Sequence record: OQ955832.1
Length of the DNA: 57,756 bases
Strand: one strand, 5' to 3'
Source: Escherichia phage vB_EcoS_PJ16
In this document: one piece after another, positions 9,024 through 48,160 of the stretch
Position numbering within the stretch: the first letter of the stretch is position 1
Layout of the letters: every line of letters begins with the position of its first letter
Position numbers and translations under genes: made by a program
The notes under the pieces: model-generated
Told to the model about the DNA's origin: nothing
Database searches by the model: none
Seen by the model: only the letters and a program-made list of their open reading frames with translations

Positions 9024-9162
9024 AATGATTAGTCCCGATAAACTTCAGCACACCCGTAAATTTTACCAGGGTTGTAAGCCTGACACTGTTCGAACGTCAT
9101 GATACATTCTGTCACAGGTTCAATAGCCACACCATGCAGAACAAGCACTAGTACATAACCAA

Positions 9163-9492
9163 TTAACATTTTCTTAGAGTCTCCCGCCAGTTCAGCCCGT
9201 GTAGGTTTACTTTACATACAAGAATAAACGGAATATCAGGATCATACCACGAGCTACCGCTAATGTATGGGTCGTGTTCCCACGCGTAAACTTCACCATC
9301 AGCATCAGTAGTAATAACTGTATAGTTTTCTGGTATAGTTACTGACAATCCAAAATACATTACAGTTTTATAAAGATTCATTTTAACCAGTGTCATTTTA
9401 CAATCTGGTGCTTCTTCGTGGATATCCCACGATTTACCACAATGCGAACAATGATATTCATCATTACAGCGAATAGCGTTTACATGATTCAT
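9163..9492 (-). CDS. Hypothetical Cys-rich protein (109 aa)
   Basis: Track ORF; CxxC and HC pairs near N-terminus. Confidence 0.5.
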   Translation of the reverse strand: MNHVNAIRCNDEYHCSHCGKSWDIHEEAPDCKMTLVKMNLYKTVMYFGLSVTIPENYTVITTDADGEVYAWEHDPYISGSSWYDPDIPFILVCKVNLHGLNWRETLRKC

Positions 9493-9509
9493 GATTATTC
9501 TCCTGTTAT

Positions 9510-9710
9510 TCAGTTGACTAAGTAATAAATGTTATCACGGGCCAATTCATCAGCGTCTTCCTGACATTCGATTAAGGTGTTATCGTTACGCCATTCTTTA
9601 GCACATTCACGCGCTTGTTTACGACGTTTTTTCTTACTGTTACGAAGGTCTAAAAATATTTTTAATTCTTTATCATAAGCTCTTACCATACGTTTCATTG
9701 TACTTTTCAT
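9510..9710 (-). CDS. Hypothetical basic protein (66 aa)
   Basis: Track ORF. Confidence 0.45.
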   Translation of the reverse strand: MKSTMKRMVRAYDKELKIFLDLRNSKKKRRKQARECAKEWRNDNTLIECQEDADELARDNIYYLVN

Positions 9711-9713
9711 AAT

Positions 9714-9860
9714 TCAAAACCCCTTACTTTTAGCAATTTGTTGTGCACGTTTTTTAGTGTGACCAGCAGCAATTAAGCGTTTAATTTCGGCTTTACGGCG
9801 TACAAAGTGATCACTGCGTGAATTTTCAACCCACGACTGACTAATGTTTCTTGGATTCAT
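9714..9860 (-). CDS. Hypothetical small protein (48 aa), paralog of 10425-10625 C-terminus
   Basis: Not in track; shares about 35-nt repeat encoding KRLIAAGHTKKR; ATGA-coupled. Confidence 0.4.
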   Translation of the reverse strand: MNPRNISQSWVENSRSDHFVRRKAEIKRLIAAGHTKKRAQQIAKSKGF

Positions 9861-10195
9861 AATTCTATAGCCTTTGTCAGATATGAATGTTTCAGAACTT
9901 CACAAATTGTGTCATAATATTCAAATGTAACAGCAATAGTGTCAGCCGTTCGCTGATAGAAAAGAAAACCCTGATCATCCAATTGTTCAAGTATTTCAAT
10001 TTCTTCACTTGAACAATTACCGGAAATTATTTTCCCACCATTCAATACACAGTGAAGAATGAAAGGTAATAAACGTAACTCATGTTTGGTTAACTCGCGT
10101 TTAGTTTTAAACTGATATAATTGTTTCAGTTCATCGGTAACCATTCCACGGTGTTCTGGTTTTACTGGTATTAACATGTTCATCACTCCTTTCAT
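9857..10195 (-). CDS. Hypothetical protein (112 aa)
   Basis: Track ORF. Confidence 0.5.
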   Translation of the reverse strand: MKGVMNMLIPVKPEHRGMVTDELKQLYQFKTKRELTKHELRLLPFILHCVLNGGKIISGNCSSEEIEILEQLDDQGFLFYQRTADTIAVTFEYYDTICEVLKHSYLTKAIEL

Positions 10196-10424
10196 TTATA
10201 ATAAAGTTCTTTTTCAAGCCTGATGATTTGTTCTTTCAACCACGAAAGTTCTAAAAGAGTTTGTTTACCCCACGCCATCACTTCGGCATACCGTTTACAC
10301 TCATAACTGTGTTTTTTACGCTCGTAACAAGTAAGATGTCGCTGATGGCATGTGCTATTTAAAAGGTGAAACCTTATATTTACACTAACGCTGTTTTCAA
10401 TTAAATCATCATTTATGCAATCGT

Positions 10425-10625
10425 TTACATTGCGCCAGTCTTGTCGCGTTTTTTAGTGTGACCAGCAGCAATTAAGCGTTTTTCTACTTGGTCATTATAA
10501 GTTTTTAAAAGTTCGTCGCGCATTACTCGACATGTTTCACACGGGCATTTCATAACAGGTTCAGTACAAGCATTAGGATCTAATGACGCAATACCAAAAC
10601 CACTACCGTTGCCGTACATACTCAC
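10425..10625 (-). CDS. Hypothetical Cys-containing protein (66 aa)
   Basis: Track ORF; CPCETC motif; first gene after promoter at 10673. Confidence 0.45.
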   Translation of the reverse strand: MSMYGNGSGFGIASLDPNACTEPVMKCPCETCRVMRDELLKTYNDQVEKRLIAAGHTKKRDKTGAM

Positions 10626-10647
10626 TACTCCTGTTCAGTTGATGGTG

Positions 10648-10695
10648 AAAGCATAACTGCGTATCTGTAATCAGTCAAGAATTATTTTAACACCG
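10648..10695 (-). promoter_or_regulatory. sigma70-type promoter with UP element (conserved family)
   Basis: -35 TTGACT (10673-10678), -10 TATGCT-like, UP AATTATTTTAA. Confidence 0.5.
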
Positions 10696-16926: not shown

Positions 16927-17171
16927 TAAGACATTTTGATGTTGGTTTCCAGGCGTGTGAAGTTCTTCGCCAATTCACCGTTTTTCTTTTTAGCACGGTA
17001 TGCAAGACGATATTTCAACATAACGTGAATTTTACCAGACGTCAGACCGAAACACTGATTATCCCAGCCAACTTTATCAAACAGGTTAGTGCTGACTTCC
17101 GAACCTACTGGTACTTTTTCCATCAGACGTTTTTGAAGTTCGTCACCAACTTTTTTCATACAGTCACACAT
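16896..17171 (-). CDS. Hypothetical Cys-containing protein (92 aa)
   Basis: Track ORF 16896-17180 trimmed to ATG; CDC and CPFC motifs. Confidence 0.45.
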   Translation of the reverse strand: MCDCMKKVGDELQKRLMEKVPVGSEVSTNLFDKVGWDNQCFGLTSGKIHVMLKYRLAYRAKKKNGELAKNFTRLETNIKMSYCPFCGEKQE

Positions 17172-17545
17172 TACGCGCACCTCGATAGTCGTCTTAATTT
17201 AACGATCAACCTTGTGACTTTACTCCAGTCAGATTCAGTAAAGTCGTCCACATCTTTAGCCCATAACTCATTAACATGTCGTGGGTTATATGGTTCTTTC
17301 TTAACTGGCTATTTCCGTTTCTTTTTACCCATAGGTTATAACCCAAGTAAAAGTTTAAGCGCACATTTACGAGCATCGTTGACCATTTTTAATAATTCTT
17401 GTGTATCAATGGTGCGATCAGCGTGTTTAATCAGTTCATTCATACTATTAACCTCTTACTATTCCTACGACCACAGGTGCTGCGAAAATCATGAAAGCCA
17501 GTATGTAGTAAATCATCGCATGTCTCCTTTTTCTTCCTGTTAACC

Positions 17546-17592
17546 ACAGGGTAGTTGTGTCGGTGTAATTTGTCAAGAATTATTTTAAAGAT
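17546..17592 (-). promoter_or_regulatory. sigma70-type promoter with UP element (conserved family), left arm of divergent pair
   Basis: -35 TTGACA (17571-17576), 17-bp spacer, TACCCT; inverted copy of promoter at 17898. Confidence 0.55.
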
Positions 17593-17880
17593 ACAGCTAA
17601 TACAGAACGTGTACTAACTGCACATATTTCTACATAGGTTTCATGATTTTGAGTTGCAGCTAATACAGAACGTGTATTAGTAGATCATAGATTCATAGAT
17701 TTCGTCATGTTTATTTTTTAACCAACCTCTCTCTATCTTATTCTTTTTATTATCTTTTTATAATAAAAAGATAATAAACATAATAAACATAGATAAATAG
17801 AAGAGTAGTATAAGTAGTATAAGTTGCTGCAAGTAGGAGAGGTTTAAAAGGTATAGGGAGTCGCATACTTCCCATGAATC
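17581..17880. repeat. AT-rich non-coding repeat hub B
   Basis: No ORFs; direct repeats cagctaatacagaacgtgta x2, catagat repeats; homologous to window-end/start region. Confidence 0.65.
17746..17778. repeat. Perfect palindrome (16-bp arms, 1-nt centre)
   Basis: tttttattatctttttat a ataaaaagataataaaa read directly; core TTATCT...AGATAA also present at window junction. Confidence 0.8.
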
Positions 17881-17928
17881 TATACGTAAAATAATTCTTG
17901 ACGGATTACACCGACACAAATACCCTGT
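17880..17928 (+). promoter_or_regulatory. sigma70-type promoter with UP element (conserved family), right arm of divergent pair
   Basis: TAAAATAATTCTTGACGGATTACACC; -35 17898-17903, TACCCT at 17921-17926. Confidence 0.55.
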
Positions 17929-17956
17929 GGTTAAGAAAACAAGAAGGGTTGAATGT

Positions 17957-18304
17957 ATGAATCCGAACATCAGAGTTGCTACAGACGAATTCATTCGTCG
18001 CGCCCGTAAAGTTCACGGTGATCGTTACGACTACTCATTCAGCATTGTTGAAGATAGTTCCAGCACAGTGGTTATTATTGACTGTGAAACTAACACAGTG
18101 TTTTTCCAGGTTGTCGCTGAACATCTGGACGGTGTTGAACCAGTAACGACTGCTGTTGAACCAGTAACGACTGCTGTTGAATCGATCAAGAATCTTTCTG
18201 AGACATTCGGTAACGTTGCAAACAGCGTGTATCACCAGTGCAATTATTCATCTGAAATGTTAGAATTTAGTCATGTTGAAACAATACGAGGACAATCCCC
18301 GTGA
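17957..18304 (+). CDS. Hypothetical protein with degenerate zinc-ribbon-like N-domain and VEPVTTA repeat
   Basis: Track ORF 17927-18304 trimmed to ATG 17957; DEFIRRARKVHGDRYDYS matches N-domain of 26624-27235 protein but lacks Cys ligands. Confidence 0.45.
   Translation: MNPNIRVATDEFIRRARKVHGDRYDYSFSIVEDSSSTVVIIDCETNTVFFQVVAEHLDGVEPVTTAVEPVTTAVESIKNLSETFGNVANSVYHQCNYSSEMLEFSHVETIRGQSP
18134..18175 (+). repeat. 21-bp tandem repeat x2 (in-frame, VEPVTTA)
   Basis: gttgaaccagtaacgactgct repeated exactly. Confidence 0.8.
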
Positions 18305-42603: not shown

Positions 42604-43749
42604 TTAAAGTGGACGTGCGCCAGTCGGCATCGTCACGGGTTTATTAAAAACAGATTCTGCCAGTGTGCTGTGACCTTTACGCGGGTCACTGTCAGGTACT
42701 AAAACTGGCTGACCTTCTGGTTTTGTAGTACACATGTCAACAAGTGCCGGGGGCAGTGATTTTTCCAGTGTTGACAACGGTTTTAATTTACGTTCGTACA
42801 ATGTTTCAGGGTTTACACCAAACATGGGTGCAGCACCGATCAGTTTTCCTTCGTCCGTAAGCTGACGTCGGGTTTGCTTTGTTGCGAGTTTAAAACCCGG
42901 TAAAGCCTTACCCATGCGAACAAAATGTAACCCCTGAGTATGTAACGCTGTTTTTGCTTCAGAAGAACGCGTATACAGTTCTTCAAGAAGTGCCAGACGA
43001 CGCGCTACTTCTTCTGGCGTAAGTGATGCTGGTGCATCAAGAACAGTAGCCAATTCTAAAACCCTCTCATACATCGCCGGACACATACCACGCGCCGGAC
43101 AGTAATGACAATGACTACCAACATTTAACGGTGCGTCTGGTTTATGTGCTTCGTTAAACCCGTGTTTAAATCGTTCAACCCAGTCCATCAATGTCACCCG
43201 GTTAAACTCCCATCGTCTTACAGGTCCGAGTGGGTGATAAGCCCGTGGCTGAACGATTGTGAACACAACACGCTTAACAGTATCAATACAACGTTGATCC
43301 AGTGCGTAATAGATCCCCTGTGAGTTATCAACTGCTTCAACTGCAACATGACCGTATTTATAATCCCATACGTAAAGCGTATCAGTATTAAAGTCATACC
43401 AGCGATAATCACAGGTTCCGTACTGACCGGGTAACAACCAGTCAATGTGAATGCGAACTTCTGAAAACAGCGGATCGAGTTTCGCACCAACTGAAAGAAC
43501 ATCTGCTATAAAGTCATCCGCGTAAATGTGCATGTCTTCAGTAACCTGAACACCGTTAGGAGCAAGACACGGCATTAATGGCGGTTTACCTTTAATCTTC
43601 TGTTCTAACACCCAGTGCCCGGCTGTACCTTCTTCAGCACTGGGTGACGATGGTTCTACATAGTCAATCCGCTGTGACAGTTGAACGCTACCCGGACAAG
43701 CTAACCAACGTTTTGATCCACTGGCACTAAAGGTAGCGTGACTTGTCAT
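42604..43749 (-). CDS. PD-(D/E)XK nuclease, DUF2800 (Cas4-like) family
   Basis: N-terminus HATFSASGSKRWLACPGS and C-terminal Cys cluster CHYCPARGMC. Confidence 0.65.
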   Translation of the reverse strand: MTSHATFSASGSKRWLACPGSVQLSQRIDYVEPSSPSAEEGTAGHWVLEQKIKGKPPLMPCLAPNGVQVTEDMHIYADDFIADVLSVGAKLDPLFSEVRIHIDWLLPGQYGTCDYRWYDFNTDTLYVWDYKYGHVAVEAVDNSQGIYYALDQRCIDTVKRVVFTIVQPRAYHPLGPVRRWEFNRVTLMDWVERFKHGFNEAHKPDAPLNVGSHCHYCPARGMCPAMYERVLELATVLDAPASLTPEEVARRLALLEELYTRSSEAKTALHTQGLHFVRMGKALPGFKLATKQTRRQLTDEGKLIGAAPMFGVNPETLYERKLKPLSTLEKSLPPALVDMCTTKPEGQPVLVPDSDPRKGHSTLAESVFNKPVTMPTGARPL

Positions 43750-44501
43750 CAGAATGCCCCACCCATTTGTTTAACAGACTCAGCCTGACCGACAATATTT
43801 TCAGCATCAGCAGGGGCAGCGTTGATACGTTCAATCAGTTCGATGATAGATTTCAGTTTCACCGGGTCATCAATTTGCATCACGTTCTGAGTTTCATACA
43901 GTCCCATGATTCGCTGACTTAACGGCGCAGCACGGTCACCCGTAATTTGTCCAAACATCTGCATCAGTGCTGACTGAAGAACCTGGGTGTTATAAACTTT
44001 AGCCGGATCCGTGGTTACAGGTTGCTCAGCAGGCGCGACTGGTGCTGCTGGTGCTGCTGGTACAACTGGAGCTACCGGAGCGGCAGGAACCGCTGGAGCA
44101 GGATCAACAGGTGCTACATAACCCGGTGCAAGTTCTGCAGGTCCAGTATAACGCCCTGCTTCAACTGCTTCAGCGATAAGTTCACGTTTAACACCGTCAA
44201 CAAACGCTTCATCCAGTTTTTTCTTCTGACGCCACAGACCGTCACCTTTGTTCAGGGATTTACTGTCAGTGTGGATACGCGGATCATGACGCAAACCCCA
44301 TTTGTCGAACTCTTCAGTGCTGGTTTCGTTATCGTCAACATCTTCAGTTGGTGCAGATACAACAGGTAGTGATTCAGCAACGACAGAAACGATTTCTTCT
44401 TTCGTAATCGGTGAGACACTTTTACCAGCAATCGCCGCTGCCAGATTGTTGATCGCAGTTTCCAGACCCGGAGCAGTTACAAGTAATTTAACTTCGAACA
44501 T
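43749..44501 (-). CDS. Hypothetical protein with Pro/Ala-rich linker (250 aa)
   Basis: Track ORF; first gene after promoters 44557/44620. Confidence 0.5.
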   Translation of the reverse strand: MFEVKLLVTAPGLETAINNLAAAIAGKSVSPITKEEIVSVVAESLPVVSAPTEDVDDNETSTEEFDKWGLRHDPRIHTDSKSLNKGDGLWRQKKKLDEAFVDGVKRELIAEAVEAGRYTGPAELAPGYVAPVDPAPAVPAAPVAPVVPAAPAAPVAPAEQPVTTDPAKVYNTQVLQSALMQMFGQITGDRAAPLSQRIMGLYETQNVMQIDDPVKLKSIIELIERINAAPADAENIVGQAESVKQMGGAF

Positions 44502-44531
44502 TACATTTTCCTCTTGTTGTTTGGTTGTCGC

Positions 44532-44578
44532 TAACTTTAAAAGGTGTTGTGTAATCTGTCAAGAATTATTTTACACTC
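44532..44578 (-). promoter_or_regulatory. sigma70-type promoter with UP element (conserved family)
   Basis: -35 TTGACA (44557-44562), 17-bp spacer, -10 TAAAGT (44534-44539). Confidence 0.6.
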
Positions 44579-44593
44579 ACCTTTCGTTGATGC

Positions 44594-44641
44594 AGATGTT
44601 AGAGGAATAAGTTGCAATGCGTCAAGAACTATTTTAAACTT
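44594..44641 (-). promoter_or_regulatory. sigma70-type promoter with UP element (conserved family), tandem second copy
   Basis: -35 TTGACG (44620-44625), 18-bp spacer, -10 TAACAT. Confidence 0.55.
44612..44640 (+). promoter_or_regulatory. Putative divergent plus-strand promoter
   Basis: TTGCAA-17 bp-TAAACT; 37 nt upstream of helicase GTG start. Confidence 0.4.
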
Positions 44642-44676
44642 TTTTCACGATTCGATATTAGCTGAAGGAAAGATAC

Positions 44677-47355
44677 GTGAGTCAACAACCACTTCGTTAT
44701 TACCAACAAGATGCAGTTAACAACGTGCGCCAGGCATGGTCGAACGGTGCTAATGACGTGATTCTTGTGCTTCCCACTGGCTGTCATGCTAAAGACAGTG
44801 AAATTCTTATGTACAACGGTGATGTTATAAAAGTACAGGATGTTTTACCTGGTGATTTATTGATGGGTCGTGATTCATTACCACGAACCGTGTTAGCGTT
44901 AGCTCGTGGCAGAGAAGAAATGTTTGAAATCATCCCAGTCAAAGGGTCACCTTTCCGTGTAAATAAAAATCACATATTACATTTGATACATACTGAATCA
45001 AAAGAAGAAATAGACATTTCTGTAAGTGATTACTTACAGAAATCAAATTATTTCAAACATTGCCACAAGTTGCTTCGTACGGGGGTTGATTTCGAATATC
45101 GCGAACCACCGACTTTAGACCCGTGGTTTGCCGGGATTATGATCGGTGATGGTAGTTACAAATCAGGTACACCACGTCTGACAAATGCAGACTCAAGTAT
45201 TTTAGAAAAGGCTACTTTTTACGCAAACCTTTTTGGATGTGTCTGCAAAGATGTAAAAGGTAACAACTGTGTTACACGTTATTTCGGTTATCCCGGGTCA
45301 TCGCGTTCGGTTAGTAACCCGTTGAGCGATGCGATGAAATCTGATGGATTGTGGGGGAAAATCGCACATGAAAAATCAATACCTGATGTGTATAAAAAAG
45401 GAAGCAGAAACACACGTTTAAACGTTCTGGCAGGATTAATTGATAGCGACGGATATATTTCACATAAGGGCGTTGATTTTGTGTCCAAATCACAGCAGTT
45501 AGCCGCTGATTTAGTGTTCGTTGCAAGAAGCCTGGGGAAAGCCGCGTATTACAAAGCCTGTGTTAAATCATGTCAAACGGGTAATGCAAACATTTACTAC
45601 AGAGTGAGTATTAGTGGCGATTTAAGCGATGTACCATTCGTTAGAAAACATGGTGATTTAACGAGAAAGCAGAAGAAAAATCATTTAGTAACGGGCTTTT
45701 CTGTTCGGTCTGTTGGTGAAGATAATTTTTATGGTTTTATGGTTAACGGTGACAATCTTTATCTTACGTCAGACTTCATCATCCATCATAACAGTGGTAA
45801 AACACGTACTATGGCTGAACTACTAAAATCCGACGGTGTAAAAGTCATCCAGGCACACCGCAAAGAACTAGTTAGTCAAATCGCAATGGCTGTTGCTCGC
45901 CAGGGGTTAGCACACAGATTTATAGCGCAAAAAGATACTGTTAAGTTTGCAACTAATCAGCAGATGAAAACGCTTGGTTACAGTACCTATTCCCCCGGTG
46001 CTGACATCGTTATTACCAGTTCACAAACGTTAAGAACAAAACAGTACGAACGATGGTACAACGACGTGTCTCTTGTATTCAGCGACGAAGCGCATCACCT
46101 GGTGCGTGGCACACAGTGGGGAGACTGCCGGGAAAAATTCCCTAACGCTAAAGGTCTGGGTGTTACAGCCACACCGATCCGTGCTGACGGTAAAGGCCTG
46201 GGTCGTCATGCATCAGGTTACGCAGATCAGATGATCATTGGTCCGTCAATGCGTGAATTAATCAGTCAACAACACCTGGCTGATTATCGTCTGATCATGG
46301 CTGAAACAGACCTGGAATTAACCGCAGAAATGATTTCTCATACGACGGGTGATTACAAACCATCTGCGTTAAAAAAAGCGATGGAAGATTCAAACATTGT
46401 TGGTGATACCGTTAGTACGTGGAAAACGTATGCAGATGGTTTACTCACTGTTGTGTTTACGTGTGATGTGGATTCTGCTGAAGCACTTGCAAAAGAATTT
46501 CGCGATGCTGGCATTCCTGCAGAGGCGATCAGTTCACGAAACAGTAATCAGGAACGAGCGGATATTCTGGAACGTTTTGAACGACGTAAAACACTCGTGC
46601 TATGTAACAACGATTTATTCGGTGAAGGATACGACTGTCCGGCAATGGAATGTGCAGTAATGGATCGCCCCACAGAATCTTACTCTTTGTTTGTACAACA
46701 AATGGGTCGACCATTGCGTTTCAAACCCGGTAAAAAAGCACTGATTATTGATAAAGTCGGTAATGTTCGTCGATTTCTGGCCCGTGGTTTTCCACTTCCT
46801 GATCAGCATTACAACTGGTCTTTAGATGACCGTGACCGTCGTTCATCTAACAGCAGTGGGAACAGTAATACAACATGTACAAACAAGGGTGATCCTGATA
46901 ATGGTATTCCACCGTGTCTGAAGCCTTATCCGTCTGGTCTTCCGTGCTGCCCGTATTGTGGTCATGTTCCTGAAAAAGCCGAACGCTCAGGCCCGGATCG
47001 TGTAGAAGGTAATTTACGTGAACTGACACCTGAAGAACTGGAAGAATTACGCCGGGCAGTGGTGATAATCGACCGTGACCCTGTTGCAGTAAAAGAACAA
47101 ATGTTAAACGCGGGTGCACCCCCTGTTGCAGCTTACAGTGCAATGAAAAACATTCAGGCAATGAACGATGCACAGCGTAAGTTACGCAGCATGATCACCA
47201 CATGGGCAGGTATTCAGCGTGATAAAGGTATACCCGTTGATGACGCTTACAAGATGTTTTACAGGGTGTTTGGTGTTGATGTACTTAGTGCACAGGGCTT
47301 ACGTACTCGTGAAGCTAATGAACTCGCCGCAAGGGTTGCAAGTTCATTAATCTGA
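44677..47355 (+). CDS. SF2 DEAH-type DNA helicase, intein-containing precursor
   Basis: GTG start with AAGGA RBS; Walker A split as LPTG / SGKT by intein; DEAHH, TATP, QQMGRPLR motifs; C-terminal CxxC zinc ribbon. Confidence 0.85.
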   Translation: MSQQPLRYYQQDAVNNVRQAWSNGANDVILVLPTGCHAKDSEILMYNGDVIKVQDVLPGDLLMGRDSLPRTVLALARGREEMFEIIPVKGSPFRVNKNHILHLIHTESKEEIDISVSDYLQKSNYFKHCHKLLRTGVDFEYREPPTLDPWFAGIMIGDGSYKSGTPRLTNADSSILEKATFYANLFGCVCKDVKGNNCVTRYFGYPGSSRSVSNPLSDAMKSDGLWGKIAHEKSIPDVYKKGSRNTRLNVLAGLIDSDGYISHKGVDFVSKSQQLAADLVFVARSLGKAAYYKACVKSCQTGNANIYYRVSISGDLSDVPFVRKHGDLTRKQKKNHLVTGFSVRSVGEDNFYGFMVNGDNLYLTSDFIIHHNSGKTRTMAELLKSDGVKVIQAHRKELVSQIAMAVARQGLAHRFIAQKDTVKFATNQQMKTLGYSTYSPGADIVITSSQTLRTKQYERWYNDVSLVFSDEAHHLVRGTQWGDCREKFPNAKGLGVTATPIRADGKGLGRHASGYADQMIIGPSMRELISQQHLADYRLIMAETDLELTAEMISHTTGDYKPSALKKAMEDSNIVGDTVSTWKTYADGLLTVVFTCDVDSAEALAKEFRDAGIPAEAISSRNSNQERADILERFERRKTLVLCNNDLFGEGYDCPAMECAVMDRPTESYSLFVQQMGRPLRFKPGKKALIIDKVGNVRRFLARGFPLPDQHYNWSLDDRDRRSSNSSGNSNTTCTNKGDPDNGIPPCLKPYPSGLPCCPYCGHVPEKAERSGPDRVEGNLRELTPEELEELRRAVVIIDRDPVAVKEQMLNAGAPPVAAYSAMKNIQAMNDAQRKLRSMITTWAGIQRDKGIPVDDAYKMFYRVFGVDVLSAQGLRTREANELAARVASSLI
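44782..45792 (+). mobile_element. Intein with double-LAGLIDADG homing endonuclease in helicase P-loop
   Basis: Begins with Cys after LPTG, ends HN before Ser; LAGLIDSDG and FAGIMIGDG motifs; 337 codons in frame. Confidence 0.8.
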
Positions 47356-47396
47356 TGGTAATCTGCATAGAAATATTTTAAACGTAAGGAACTGTA

Positions 47397-47888
47397 ATGA
47401 CAACGCTTGAACAATGGGCGATTCGTCACGGTATTAGTCAGATGGCGTTGTACGAGTTATACGCTCTTTATCAGCCTGACGGAACACCACACGAAGACGG
47501 TGTAAGTGAAAGCGCTACCAGTAAAGAGTGTGAACTGATTGCAGCACGTGCCGGGCAACGTATCTGGCGTAATAACTCAGGTGCTCTGAAAAACGAAAAA
47601 GGAATGATGGTTCGTTATGGTCTTGGTAACACCAGTGCGAAAATCAACGCTGTTATGAAGTCAAGCGACTACATCGGCATTAAAACCAAAATCGTTACAC
47701 CGGATATGATCGGTTCGAAAGTGGGCGTCTTTATTGCTGCCGAAATGAAACGCCCTGACTGGTACATGACCCCGAGTGACAGACATGCACAAGCACAGGC
47801 CACTTTCGGTGCGATTGTTGAAAACGCAGGTGGTGAATTTCGTTTCATCACTCATCCTTCACAATTTGAAAAATGGATTAAACAATGA
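47397..47888 (+). CDS. VRR-NUC domain nuclease
   Basis: RNNSG, D-Y-IG, E-K and QAQ elements in order. Confidence 0.6.
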   Translation: MTTLEQWAIRHGISQMALYELYALYQPDGTPHEDGVSESATSKECELIAARAGQRIWRNNSGALKNEKGMMVRYGLGNTSAKINAVMKSSDYIGIKTKIVTPDMIGSKVGVFIAAEMKRPDWYMTPSDRHAQAQATFGAIVENAGGEFRFITHPSQFEKWIKQ

Positions 47889-48160
47889 ATAAAAAATCTT
47901 TAATCGCAACAATTGTAAGTCCTGAATACAAACAAAAACGTGAATCAATAACGTCTGAAATTGTTTCTGAATTTGATGACGTTAAAAAAACAAACCAACG
48001 CGTATCACGTCTGCAAAAACTGATTGATAACCACGGTATTGAAGCTGTTGCTAAACGTCTGAACGTTACTGAAATTCATGTTAAACGTAATCTGCTTACC
48101 GGGCGATCTGCTATCAACCTGGTCAAACTGATGGCTGCTGAACGTCAGTTCGGAGCGTAA
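47885..48160 (+). CDS. Hypothetical protein (91 aa)
   Basis: Track ORF. Confidence 0.45.
   Translation: MNKKSLIATIVSPEYKQKRESITSEIVSEFDDVKKTNQRVSRLQKLIDNHGIEAVAKRLNVTEIHVKRNLLTGRSAINLVKLMAAERQFGA

What the first reader, a model, noticed from the sequence alone, without database searches (positions are those of the whole stretch)
44782..45792. Intein with LAGLIDADG homing endonuclease splitting the helicase Walker A motif
The helicase reads ...VILVLPTG then Cys at 44782, and resumes SGKTRTMAELL after ...FIIHHN at 45792, so the spliced P-loop is LPTGSGKT. The 337-aa insert has intein block A (Cys1), two LAGLIDADG motifs and the terminal HN followed by Ser. P-loops of replication ATPases are classic intein insertion sites.
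Basis: partly seen in the sequence, partly recalled or inferred. Interest (0 to 1): 0.65.

Follow-up and report, generated by a model that had tools for sequence, protein, structure and literature searches.

The report
Mobile intein splitting a phage helicase P-loop
A phage replication helicase gene is interrupted, inside its ATP-binding loop, by a typical self-splicing protein element (intein) carrying a homing endonuclease; this is a known kind of selfish element, and here the flanking DNA still shows the scar of its recent arrival.

Summary
ORF 44677..47355 (+) encodes an 892-aa SF2 helicase precursor. Codons 36-372 (44782-45792, 337 aa) are a PI-SceI-type intein: a Hint splicing domain with a nested double-motif LAGLIDADG endonuclease. 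It starts with Cys1, ends His-Asn, and is followed by Ser. It sits between G and S of the Walker A motif PTG|SGKT.

Eleven Sashavirus relatives (about 95% DNA identity) have the same gene without these 1011 nt. The AlphaFold model (pLDDT 95.6) matches DNA-bound PI-SceI (TM 0.83).

Two 9NA-like Salmonella phage helicases carry the same intein at the same site (89% aa identity). Synonymous divergence is 0.35 in the intein against 1.26 in the helicase, and dN/dS is 0.15 in the endonuclease domain. This points to horizontal transfer and a functional element.

The window's helicase equals phage PDP46 in all 501 body residues. A sharply bounded mosaic tract flanks the intein (121 nt upstream, 39 nt downstream). 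It changes the RBS and start codon, and it changes residue +1 from Ala, which cannot splice, to Ser. I read this as a co-conversion scar.

The site lies three residues upstream of the "classic" GK|T P-loop site. Verdict: a real, ordinary intein and a new member of a known kind.

The parts
44677..47355 (+). Helicase precursor gene: 892 codons plus stop, GTG start. Predicted 99.2 kDa precursor, giving a 61.7 kDa helicase and a 37.6 kDa intein.
44665..44669 (+). Likely ribosome-binding site AAGGA, 7 nt before the GTG start. It lies inside the replaced tract.
   Evidence: (sequence)
44677..44781 (+). N-extein, 35 codons, ending ...VLPTG (first half of Walker A).
44782..45792 (+). Intein, 337 codons, Cys1 to Asn337. 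GC 0.391, against 0.461 in the helicase body.
44782..45096 (+). N-terminal lobe of the Hint splicing domain (residues 1-105). Block A is CHAKD at 44782-44796. Block B is NKNHILHL at 44962-44985, with N61 and H64.
45097..45681 (+). LAGLIDADG homing-endonuclease domain (about residues 106-300). Motif 1 is at 45127-45156 (Asp123). Motif 2 is at 45427-45456 (Asp223). The Lys aligned with PI-SceI K301 is in HEKSIP at 45367-45384.
45682..45792 (+). C-terminal lobe of the Hint domain (residues 301-337). Block F is FYGFMVNGDNLYL at 45727-45765. Block G is FIIHHN at 45775-45792.
45793..45795 (+). +1 nucleophile codon AGT (Ser). Intein-free Sashavirus alleles have GCA (Ala) here.
45793..47355 (+). C-extein: SGKT... 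then the rest of the ResIII and Helicase_C domains and the C-terminal region. From about residue 52 of the spliced protein it matches PDP46 at 501/501 aa.
44661..44781 (+). Upstream replaced (co-conversion) tract, 121 nt. It is 61% identical to PDP46, against about 97.5% outside the tract. The 5' half is 9NA-like and the 3' half is Sasha-like with extra changes.
45793..45831 (+). Downstream replaced (co-conversion) tract, 39 nt including a 3-nt indel. It is 9NA-like (SGKTRTMAELLKS).

Best explanation
The 1011-nt insert is a class-1, PI-SceI-type intein. It consists of a Hint protein-splicing domain with a two-motif LAGLIDADG homing endonuclease nested in it. It interrupts the Walker A loop (PTG|SGKT) of the replication-module SF2 helicase of a Sashavirus phage.

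Inferred mechanism. The 99-kDa precursor is translated whole, and the helicase cannot bind ATP until the intein removes itself. Cys1 makes the N-S acyl shift, helped by block-B His64. Ser+1 attacks to form the branched intermediate. Asn337, helped by His336, cyclises to release the 37.6-kDa intein. An O-N shift then gives the 61.7-kDa helicase with an intact P-loop.

The freed intein is expected to act as a site-specific endonuclease. During mixed infection it would cut intein-less helicase alleles near the PTG/xGKT codons. Repair from the intein-bearing copy then copies in the intein together with short flanks.

This phage most likely acquired the element that way, from an unsampled relative. 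The intein arrived with about 121 nt of upstream and 39 nt of downstream donor sequence. That sequence replaced the RBS and start codon and converted residue +1 from Ala to the obligatory Ser.

Shown by the sequence: the anatomy, the absence from orthologues, the fold, the conserved catalytic residues, purifying selection, the intein/extein discordance and the mosaic tract. Inferred only: that splicing occurs, that the endonuclease cleaves, and that the endonuclease (rather than general recombination) started the transfer.
For: Anatomy and domains.

Fold: the AF2 model has pLDDT 95.6 and pTM 0.93. Foldseek gives PI-SceI as top hit (1lwt, TMq 0.83, E = 5e-23), then VMA inteins, Prp8 inteins and I-DmoI.

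Catalytic residues: in a 60-sequence family alignment C1, H64, D123, H336 and N337 are invariant, N61 and D223 are at least 90% conserved, and all are present here. The alignment to PI-SceI places D123, D223 and the Lys of HEKSIP on D218, D326 and K301 (PI-SceI residue roles from my own knowledge).

Absence from orthologues: 11 Sashavirus-type phages at about 95% identity have the gene in two pieces missing exactly this segment. The protein alignment is colinear, LVLPTG|AGKT.

Close copy elsewhere: P0122 and P0245, 9NA-like helicases, carry the same intein at the same site with 299-301 of 337 aa identical. DNA identity to locus L012 is 89.8% in the intein and 80% in the helicase body.

Selection and timing: dS is 0.35 in the intein and 1.26 in the C-extein. 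dN/dS is 0.16 overall and 0.15 in the endonuclease domain.

Sporadic presence: intein-free alleles (P0243, 96-97% identical extein) sit in the same 90% cluster as P0122.

Scar: the mismatch profile against PDP46 and Sasha shows a background of 0-3 mismatches per 60 nt, except from 44661 to 44781 and from 45793 to 45831.

Direction of the event: the helicase body matches PDP46 at 501/501 aa, which is closer than Sasha (496/501). The window is therefore nested inside intein-free Sashavirus diversity.

Composition: GC is 0.391 in the intein and 0.461 in the helicase body.
Against: No experiment: splicing and DNA cleavage are inferred from conserved residues only. The direct donor has not been found. 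The best copy of the intein is only 90% identical in DNA, and the flanking tract is a mosaic that matches neither L012 nor PDP46 fully. The intein-less Sasha-type target differs from the window's spliced junction at 12 of 36 positions, mostly on the 3' side, so it is uncertain that the endonuclease cuts that allele. The low GC of the intein is not extreme: 6% of 1011-nt windows in this genome are as low or lower.
Confidence: 0.88

Rival explanations
1. The intein is real, but it entered this phage by ordinary homologous or mosaic recombination between co-infecting phages. No double-strand break was made by its own endonuclease.
For: The replaced tract is patchy. Its 5' half is 9NA-like: 74% identical to L012 and 44% to PDP46. 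Its 3' half is Sasha-like: 81% to PDP46 and 54% to L012. The Sasha-type target differs at 12 of 36 positions from the intein-bearing junction. The same genome shows other short replaced or deleted segments just downstream, at about 47380 and 47860-48040, so mosaic exchange is common here.
Against: The exchanged segment is tightly centred on the intein, with only 121 and 39 nt of flank. This is the expected shape of break-initiated gene conversion. The endonuclease domain is under purifying selection (dN/dS 0.15) and keeps its catalytic residues. Presence is sporadic in two phage lineages.
Confidence: 0.2
2. The intein and its 9NA-like flanks are ancestral in Sashavirus. The other members lost the intein when the region was replaced by an intein-free, Ala+1 allele.
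For: The Sasha-type tract is more divergent from 9NA (43% upstream, 60% downstream) than the gene body is (77%). The window's tract (62% and 74%) is nearer to the body value. SGKTR-type P-loop flanks are widespread among more distant homologues.
Against: The window's helicase body is identical to PDP46 (501/501 aa) and closer to it than Sasha is. The window is therefore nested among intein-free phages, so this scenario needs several independent, identical losses. The MKAR...AGKTF N-terminus is shared with a separate 80%-identical lineage, P0124, and with a 197-member cluster, P0121. Intein dS (0.35) is far below extein dS (1.26), which argues for transfer rather than long co-descent with the 9NA lineage.
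Confidence: 0.06
3. The splicing domain is active, but the endonuclease is no longer mobile. The element would then be inherited only vertically, or retained as a post-translational switch on helicase activity.
For: The literature argues that some P-loop inteins may be retained for regulation (PMC4760082; conditional DnaB intein splicing in PMC6195587 and PMC7360933). No cleavage data exist for this element.
Against: Both catalytic Asp residues and the K301-equivalent Lys are conserved. dN/dS is 0.15 in the endonuclease domain. There is evidence of recent horizontal movement and of a local conversion tract.
Confidence: 0.1
4. The segment is a native, non-splicing accessory domain of the helicase, or it is a group I intron carrying a LAGLIDADG ORF.
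For: None beyond the presence of a LAGLIDADG domain, which also occurs in intron ORFs.
Against: The segment is absent from 117 of the 120 listed helicase homologues and from 11 near-identical phages. It would leave the Walker A loop split by 337 residues. It has a Hint domain with all splicing residues. The reading frame is continuous with both exteins. There is no group I intron or any other credible Rfam match in 44300-46300.
Confidence: 0.01

Closest known systems
Intein of the 9NA-like Salmonella phage helicase P0122 (NCBI HFW5086742.1, 'Hint domain-containing homing endonuclease', contig DBAJVO010000021.1 of GCA_044191755.1) and P0245 (ENA)
   Same: Same host protein family, same insertion point (PTG|C...HHN|SGKT) and same length (337 aa). 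Identity is 88.7-89.3% aa and 89.8% DNA. All catalytic residues are shared.
   Different: The host helicase belongs to a different phage lineage: the body is 80% identical in DNA and 88% in aa. The flanking extein codons differ. That locus keeps the Rv2179c-like exonuclease gene downstream, which the window lacks.
PI-SceI, the Saccharomyces cerevisiae VMA1 intein (PDB 1vde, 1lwt, 1dfa)
   Same: Bipartite architecture: a Hint domain with a nested double-LAGLIDADG endonuclease. It is the best sequence match in the PDB (E = 1e-17) and the best structural match (TMq 0.83). It shares the CxAKG N-terminus, the NxxH block B, the LAGLIDSDGY motif, the K301-equivalent Lys and the terminal HN.
   Different: Only about 20% identity. 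This intein has 337 aa against 454: the region between residues 60 and 108 is about 97 aa shorter than residues 59-202 of PI-SceI. From my own knowledge, that stretch holds PI-SceI's extra DNA-recognition region. Residue +1 is Ser rather than Cys. The host is a phage helicase P-loop rather than a eukaryotic V-ATPase subunit.
Phage helicase inteins at the classic GK|T P-loop site (Klebsiella phage JD001, Escherichia phage Bas95 'similar to intein', Salmonella phage St162 'putative intein-containing helicase', Vibrio phage 393E50-1)
   Same: Same intein family (39-44% aa identity over the full length). Three of the four (JD001, Bas95, Vibrio phage 393E50-1) have host helicases of the same kind (36-40% full-length identity; St162 27%), and all four are interrupted in the Walker A motif.
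   Different: They are inserted three residues downstream (..GxGK|C...THN|T), with Thr at +1. They form a separate site-specific clade in a neighbour-joining tree: 6 site changes, against 32.5 expected with shuffled labels.
P-loop inteins of cellular and phage ATPases (DnaB-b, MCM-a, RFC-a, mycobacteriophage TerL1-a/b) as surveyed in PMC4760082 and PMC5050341
   Same: They follow the same general rule: an intein inside the ATP-binding loop of a replication or packaging ATPase. Relatives of this intein occur in AAA, RecA, DnaB and T2SSE ATPases at the same two registers.
   Different: Different host proteins. The register described as 'classic' is K|T (PMC5050341), whereas this one is G|S.

Membership tests
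Intein (class 1 protein-splicing element, Hint fold) | In-frame insertion in a conserved site of a host protein; orthologues lack it and are colinear across the junction | tested here: met
   11 phages at about 95% identity lack exactly these 1011 nt. The alignment reads LVLPTG|AGKT in them and LVLPTG|intein|SGKT here. 117 of the 120 listed helicase homologues are intein-free.
Intein (class 1 protein-splicing element, Hint fold) | N-terminal nucleophile (Cys/Ser, block A) and the block B His | tested here: met
   Cys1 (TGT, 44782) and N61-x-x-H64 are present. C1 and H64 are invariant and N61 is at least 90% conserved in the 60-sequence family alignment.
Intein (class 1 protein-splicing element, Hint fold) | C-terminal His-Asn (block G) followed by a Cys/Ser/Thr +1 residue | tested here: met
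   The sequence reads ...FIIHHN|S. H336 and N337 are invariant in the family. Residue +1 is Ser (AGT, 45793-45795).
Intein (class 1 protein-splicing element, Hint fold) | Hint fold | tested here: met
   Pfam PF05203, E = 3e-14, above the cut-off. The AF2 model (pLDDT 95.6) superposes on PI-SceI, the TliVMA and PhoVMA inteins and Prp8 mini-inteins.
Intein (class 1 protein-splicing element, Hint fold) | Protein splicing demonstrated (precursor gives ligated exteins plus free intein) | not testable with these tools
   Requires expression and a Western blot or mass spectrometry.
LAGLIDADG homing endonuclease (monomeric, double-motif, intein-borne) | Two LAGLIDADG motifs, each with the catalytic acidic residue | tested here: met
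   FAGIMIGD123G and LAGLIDSD223G. They align to D218 and D326 of PI-SceI. D123 is invariant and D223 is at least 90% conserved.
LAGLIDADG homing endonuclease (monomeric, double-motif, intein-borne) | Endonuclease fold | tested here: met
   Pfam PF14528 (3e-9) and PF05204 (2e-6), both above the cut-offs. Foldseek matches the PI-SceI endonuclease domain, I-DmoI and I-Tsp061I.
LAGLIDADG homing endonuclease (monomeric, double-motif, intein-borne) | Site-specific cleavage of the intein-less allele | not testable with these tools
   Requires a purified protein and target DNA. Candidate targets are listed.
LAGLIDADG homing endonuclease (monomeric, double-motif, intein-borne) | Population signature of mobility: sporadic presence, intein/extein discordance, flanking conversion tract | tested here: met
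   Present in 1 of 12 Sashavirus genomes and in some members of a 9NA-like cluster. dS is 0.35 in the intein and 1.26 in the extein. A sharply bounded replaced tract flanks the intein.
'Classic' P-loop intein insertion (between the Lys and Thr/Ser of GK|T) | Insertion immediately after the invariant Walker A lysine | tested here: not met
   The insertion is between G and S of PTG|SGKT, three residues upstream. It belongs to the site-a (G|[S/T/C]GK) clade of the family.
Group I intron with LAGLIDADG ORF | Structured self-splicing RNA; ORF not required to be in frame with the exons; no Hint domain | tested here: not met
   No group I intron match in Rfam at E <= 1. The frame is continuous with both exteins. 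A Hint domain is present.

The most novel reading that the evidence does not exclude
This reading has two parts. First, the window may record how a homing intein invades an allele that should be refractory. The standard Sashavirus P-loop codon at +1 is Ala, which cannot act as the splicing nucleophile, and it was converted to Ser together with the intein by co-conversion. If so, Ala/Gly at this Walker A position (90 of 117 homologues) would be a population-level 'immunity' state that the intein overcomes through flank conversion. Second, one intein family occupies two registers of the same Walker A loop (G|SGKT and GK|T) in related phage helicases, which implies rare register-hopping (6 inferred switches).
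Probability: 0.3. Interest if true: 0.4.

Novelty: new member of a known kind. Interest (0 to 1): 0.3.

Why it matters
This is a clean, correctly spotted intein. It appears to be the first in a Sashavirus among the records searched. It is a compact (337 aa) PI-SceI-type element, and both intein-bearing and intein-free natural alleles are available in cultivable E. coli and Salmonella phages. That makes it a convenient natural system for measuring intein homing, co-conversion tract length and the cost of a split P-loop in phage crosses. It could also supply another Cys1/Ser+1 intein and a LAGLIDADG nuclease for engineering. It does not change any concept: inteins in ATPase P-loops and their homing are textbook knowledge. 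For annotation, the gene should be labelled as an intein-containing helicase precursor, not as an 892-aa helicase or a 'homing endonuclease'.

Tried and rejected
1. The first protein search, with residues 1-420, listed nothing above 49% identity, and I provisionally concluded that the intein was an orphan. That was wrong. A second search with the spliced helicase found P0122, whose intein is 89% identical. It was not among the 120 hits listed (281 passed the threshold), so I cannot say whether it was missed outright or ranked lower.

2. No further close copy turned up. IMG/VR gave at best 43% identity. The E. coli complete genomes gave none by blastn. blastn-distant with the intein DNA against the phage collection gave none. 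JGI metagenome contigs gave at best 43%. GTDB genome contigs gave none. The direct donor remains unsampled.

3. An exact look-up of the 892-aa product found no record.

4. Group I intron reading: the Rfam scan gave only a chance snoRNA hit at 29 bits against a cut-off of 100. Rejected.

5. I considered 9NA itself as the donor of the flanks and rejected it. The tract is only 62-74% identical to 9NA and is a mosaic.

6. GC content as proof of foreign origin is only weakly supportive, since the intein falls at the 6th percentile of windows.

7. Literature searches for inteins in Sashavirus, Nonanavirus or Jedunavirus found nothing specific.

8. The first neighbour-joining tree attempt timed out. 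It was redone with a precomputed distance matrix.
Full report
**1. The observation**

ORF 44677..47355 (+ strand) encodes an 892-aa protein. It starts at GTG, 7 nt downstream of AAGGA. Its first 35 residues end in ...DVILVLPTG. Codon 36 is TGT (Cys) at 44782-44784. Residue 372 is the Asn of ...FIIHHN, ending at 45792. The next codons are AGT GGT AAA ACA = SGKT. The insert is 1011 nt (337 codons), in frame, and has no stop codon.

**2. What the parts are**

- The outer protein is an SF2 helicase. Pfam finds ResIII (E = 3e-16) and Helicase_C (1e-10), and NCBIfam finds RadD-like similarity.
- Pfam places three domains in the 337 residues, all above the curated cut-offs. They are Hom_end_hint (residues 1-81, E = 3e-14), LAGLIDADG_3 (212-280, 3e-9) and Hom_end (2e-6).
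- The best solved relative by sequence is PI-SceI, the yeast VMA1 intein (E = 1e-17), followed by fungal Prp8 inteins.
- An AlphaFold2 model built on a 60-sequence family alignment is very confident (pLDDT 95.6, pTM 0.93).
- The best structural matches are PI-SceI (1lwt, TM 0.83 normalised to the query, E = 5e-23), archaeal VMA inteins, Prp8 mini-inteins and the free-standing LAGLIDADG enzymes I-DmoI and I-Tsp061I.
- In the family alignment, C1, H64 (block B), D123 (LAGLIDADG motif 1), H336 and N337 are invariant. N61 and D223 (motif 2) are at least 90% conserved. This sequence has all of them.
- The alignment to PI-SceI puts D123, D223 and the Lys of HEKSIP on PI-SceI D218, D326 and K301. The roles of those PI-SceI residues are from my own knowledge.
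- The region between the N-terminal Hint strands and the endonuclease is about 97 residues shorter than in PI-SceI, so this is a compact version of that architecture.
- An Rfam scan of 44300-46300 found no group I intron.

**3. Intein-free orthologues**

The window is a Sashavirus genome. Its closest record is Sashavirus BDX09P1, at 96-97.5% identity over 83-87% of 50 kb.

Megablast of the helicase region finds 11 records that align in two pieces and skip the insert. They include PDP46, AVIO78A, Sergei, Solent, Sasha, Bas82, BDX09P1, 536P12 and SP-062/SP069. Identity is about 95% for nine of them and 90.5% for SP-062/SP069.

Their 553-aa helicases read LVLPTG|AGKTFCMSELVKT... and are colinear with the window protein once residues 36-372 are removed. 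Among the 120 best helicase homologues in the large protein collection, 117 are intein-free.

**4. The site**

Related inteins (39-44% identity) occur in helicases of Klebsiella phage JD001, Vibrio phages, Escherichia phage Bas95 and Salmonella phage St162. Some of these are already annotated as intein-containing.

In those phages the intein sits three residues downstream (GxGK|C...THN|T). This is the 'classic' P-loop site described in the literature (PMC5050341; P-loop clustering in PMC4760082).

A junction table of 120 family members shows two registers:
- Site a is G|[S/T/C]GK[S/T], with inteins beginning CHAKG... and ending ...HHN or ...THN.
- Site b is GK|[T/S].

On a neighbour-joining tree the two registers are strongly clustered: 6 inferred switches, against 32.5 with shuffled labels. 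The window's intein falls among the PTG|SGK helicase inteins of site a. The family also occupies AAA, RecA, DnaB and T2SSE ATPases.

**5. A close copy, and evidence of horizontal movement**

My first search listed nothing above 49% identity. A search with the spliced helicase then found P0122. It is an 891-aa protein recorded as NCBI HFW5086742.1, on a 59-kb contig of a Salmonella assembly. Its cluster-mate P0245 turned up as well.

These are 9NA-like helicases with the same intein at the same site: 299 and 301 of 337 residues identical.

| Comparison, window vs locus L012 | Intein | Helicase |
|---|---|---|
| DNA identity | 89.8% | 80% (body) |
| Synonymous divergence dS | 0.35 | 1.26 (C-extein) |

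So the intein moved between the two phage lineages well after their helicases diverged.

dN/dS is 0.16 for the whole intein and 0.15 for the endonuclease domain, so both activities have been under purifying selection.

The same 90% cluster also holds intein-free 554-aa alleles. P0243 is 96-97% identical to spliced P0122. Presence is therefore sporadic in that lineage too.

**6. The scar**

With the intein removed, the window differs from PDP46 and Sasha by 0-3 mismatches per 60 nt. The exception is two blocks abutting the intein, 44661-44781 and 45793-45831. Outside these blocks the helicase matches PDP46 at 501/501 residues and Sasha at 496/501. The window is thus nested within intein-free Sashavirus diversity, which favours gain here rather than loss elsewhere.

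The replaced tract changes several things:
- the RBS;
- the start codon (GTG-SQQPL..., as in 9NA, instead of ATG-KA...);
- residue +1 of the intein (AGT Ser instead of GCA Ala);
- the next dozen codons (SGKTRTMAELLKS instead of AGKTFCMSELVKTR).

The tract is itself a mosaic. Codons 1-15 and the downstream block are 9NA-like. Codons 16-35 are Sasha-like with three substitutions. The direct donor is therefore an unsampled relative, not L012 or 9NA. Searches of IMG/VR, JGI metagenomes, GTDB genomes, E. coli genomes and the phage collection found no closer copy.

Ala cannot serve as the +1 nucleophile (established intein chemistry). The intein could therefore only be viable in a Sashavirus helicase if the adjacent codon was converted with it. 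Among 117 intein-free homologues this Walker A position is Ala in 62, Gly in 28 and Ser in 27.

**7. Mechanism**

*Shown:* the anatomy, the fold, the conserved catalytic residues, the absence from orthologues, purifying selection, the intein/extein discordance and the local replaced tract.

*Inferred:*
- The 99.2-kDa precursor splices by the standard class-1 pathway. Cys1 makes the acyl shift, Ser+1 carries out the trans-esterification, and Asn337 cyclises. The products are a 61.7-kDa helicase with an intact PTGSGKT loop and a 37.6-kDa intein.
- The free intein cuts intein-less alleles.
- Break repair copied the intein plus 121 and 39 nt of flank into this phage.

The main uncertainty is whether the endonuclease itself started the event. 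The Sasha-type empty site differs from the occupied junction at 12 of 36 positions, and this genome shows other mosaic exchanges nearby.

**8. Comparison and novelty**

This is a member of the intein family, with all the sequence and structure criteria met. It is a member of the PI-SceI-type, LAGLIDADG-bearing subgroup. It is not at the classic GK|T register.

It is a new member of a known kind. An 89%-identical copy already sits in public data, annotated only as a 'Hint domain-containing homing endonuclease'. No paper in the searchable library links inteins to Sashavirus or Nonanavirus.

Interest is modest. The identification is correct and the co-conversion scar is a tidy natural example, but nothing here challenges current understanding.

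Noticed in passing
window 47356-47396 (between the helicase stop and the ORF at 47397..47888): The window lacks a gene of about 507 nt that follows the helicase in Sasha (gp67), PDP46, 9NA (gp71) and locus L012. In Sasha it encodes an Rv2179c-like 3'-5' exoribonuclease domain protein (PF16473, E = 1.8e-48). The alignment shows a clean gap of about 503 nt here.
   Followed up: partly
window 47860-48040 (ORF 47885..48160, 91 aa): This short segment just upstream of the primase gene is replaced relative to PDP46 and Sasha, which have a 57-aa ORF (Sasha gp69). There are 109 mismatches in 180 nt, with identical DNA on both sides. Neither ORF has a Pfam hit.
   Followed up: partly
loci L003 (JD001), L004 (Vibrio phage 393E50-1), L005 (Bas95), L006 (St162); proteins P0001-P0120: One intein family (about 41% identity between groups) occupies two registers of the Walker A loop, G|[S/T/C]GK and GK|[T/S]. 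It does so across helicases and AAA, RecA, DnaB and T2SSE ATPases. The registers are largely clade-specific, with about 6 inferred switches. Both registers occur within the same phage helicase family (P0122 at site a, P0171 at site b).
   Followed up: partly
protein searches: Method caveat. P0122, whose intein is 89% identical and which shares long exact words with the query, was not among the 120 hits listed for residues 1-420; 281 hits passed the threshold. It was found only with the spliced helicase as query. Statements of the form 'no close relative' based on one such search are unsafe.
   Followed up: yes
window 44020-44080, within ORF 43749..44501 (-): A local cluster of 11 mismatches in 60 nt relative to PDP46. 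It falls in the Pro/Ala/Val-rich repetitive stretch (PAPAVPAAPVAPVVPAAPAAPVAP) of the 250-aa protein encoded upstream of, and divergently from, the helicase. It is probably repeat-length or sequence variation.
   Followed up: no
window about 9100-10650 and about 16950-18100: These are the lowest-GC stretches of the genome (0.35-0.36, against a mean of 0.436). They hold small ORFs of unknown function on the minus strand. They may be accessory gene clusters and were not analysed further.
   Followed up: partly
locus L012 (GCA_044191755.1, contig DBAJVO010000021.1, 59 kb): A complete-looking 9NA-like phage genome sits as a contig in a Salmonella enterica assembly. It carries the intein-bearing helicase, and NCBI names the whole 891-aa precursor 'Hint domain-containing homing endonuclease', which hides the helicase.
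   Followed up: partly
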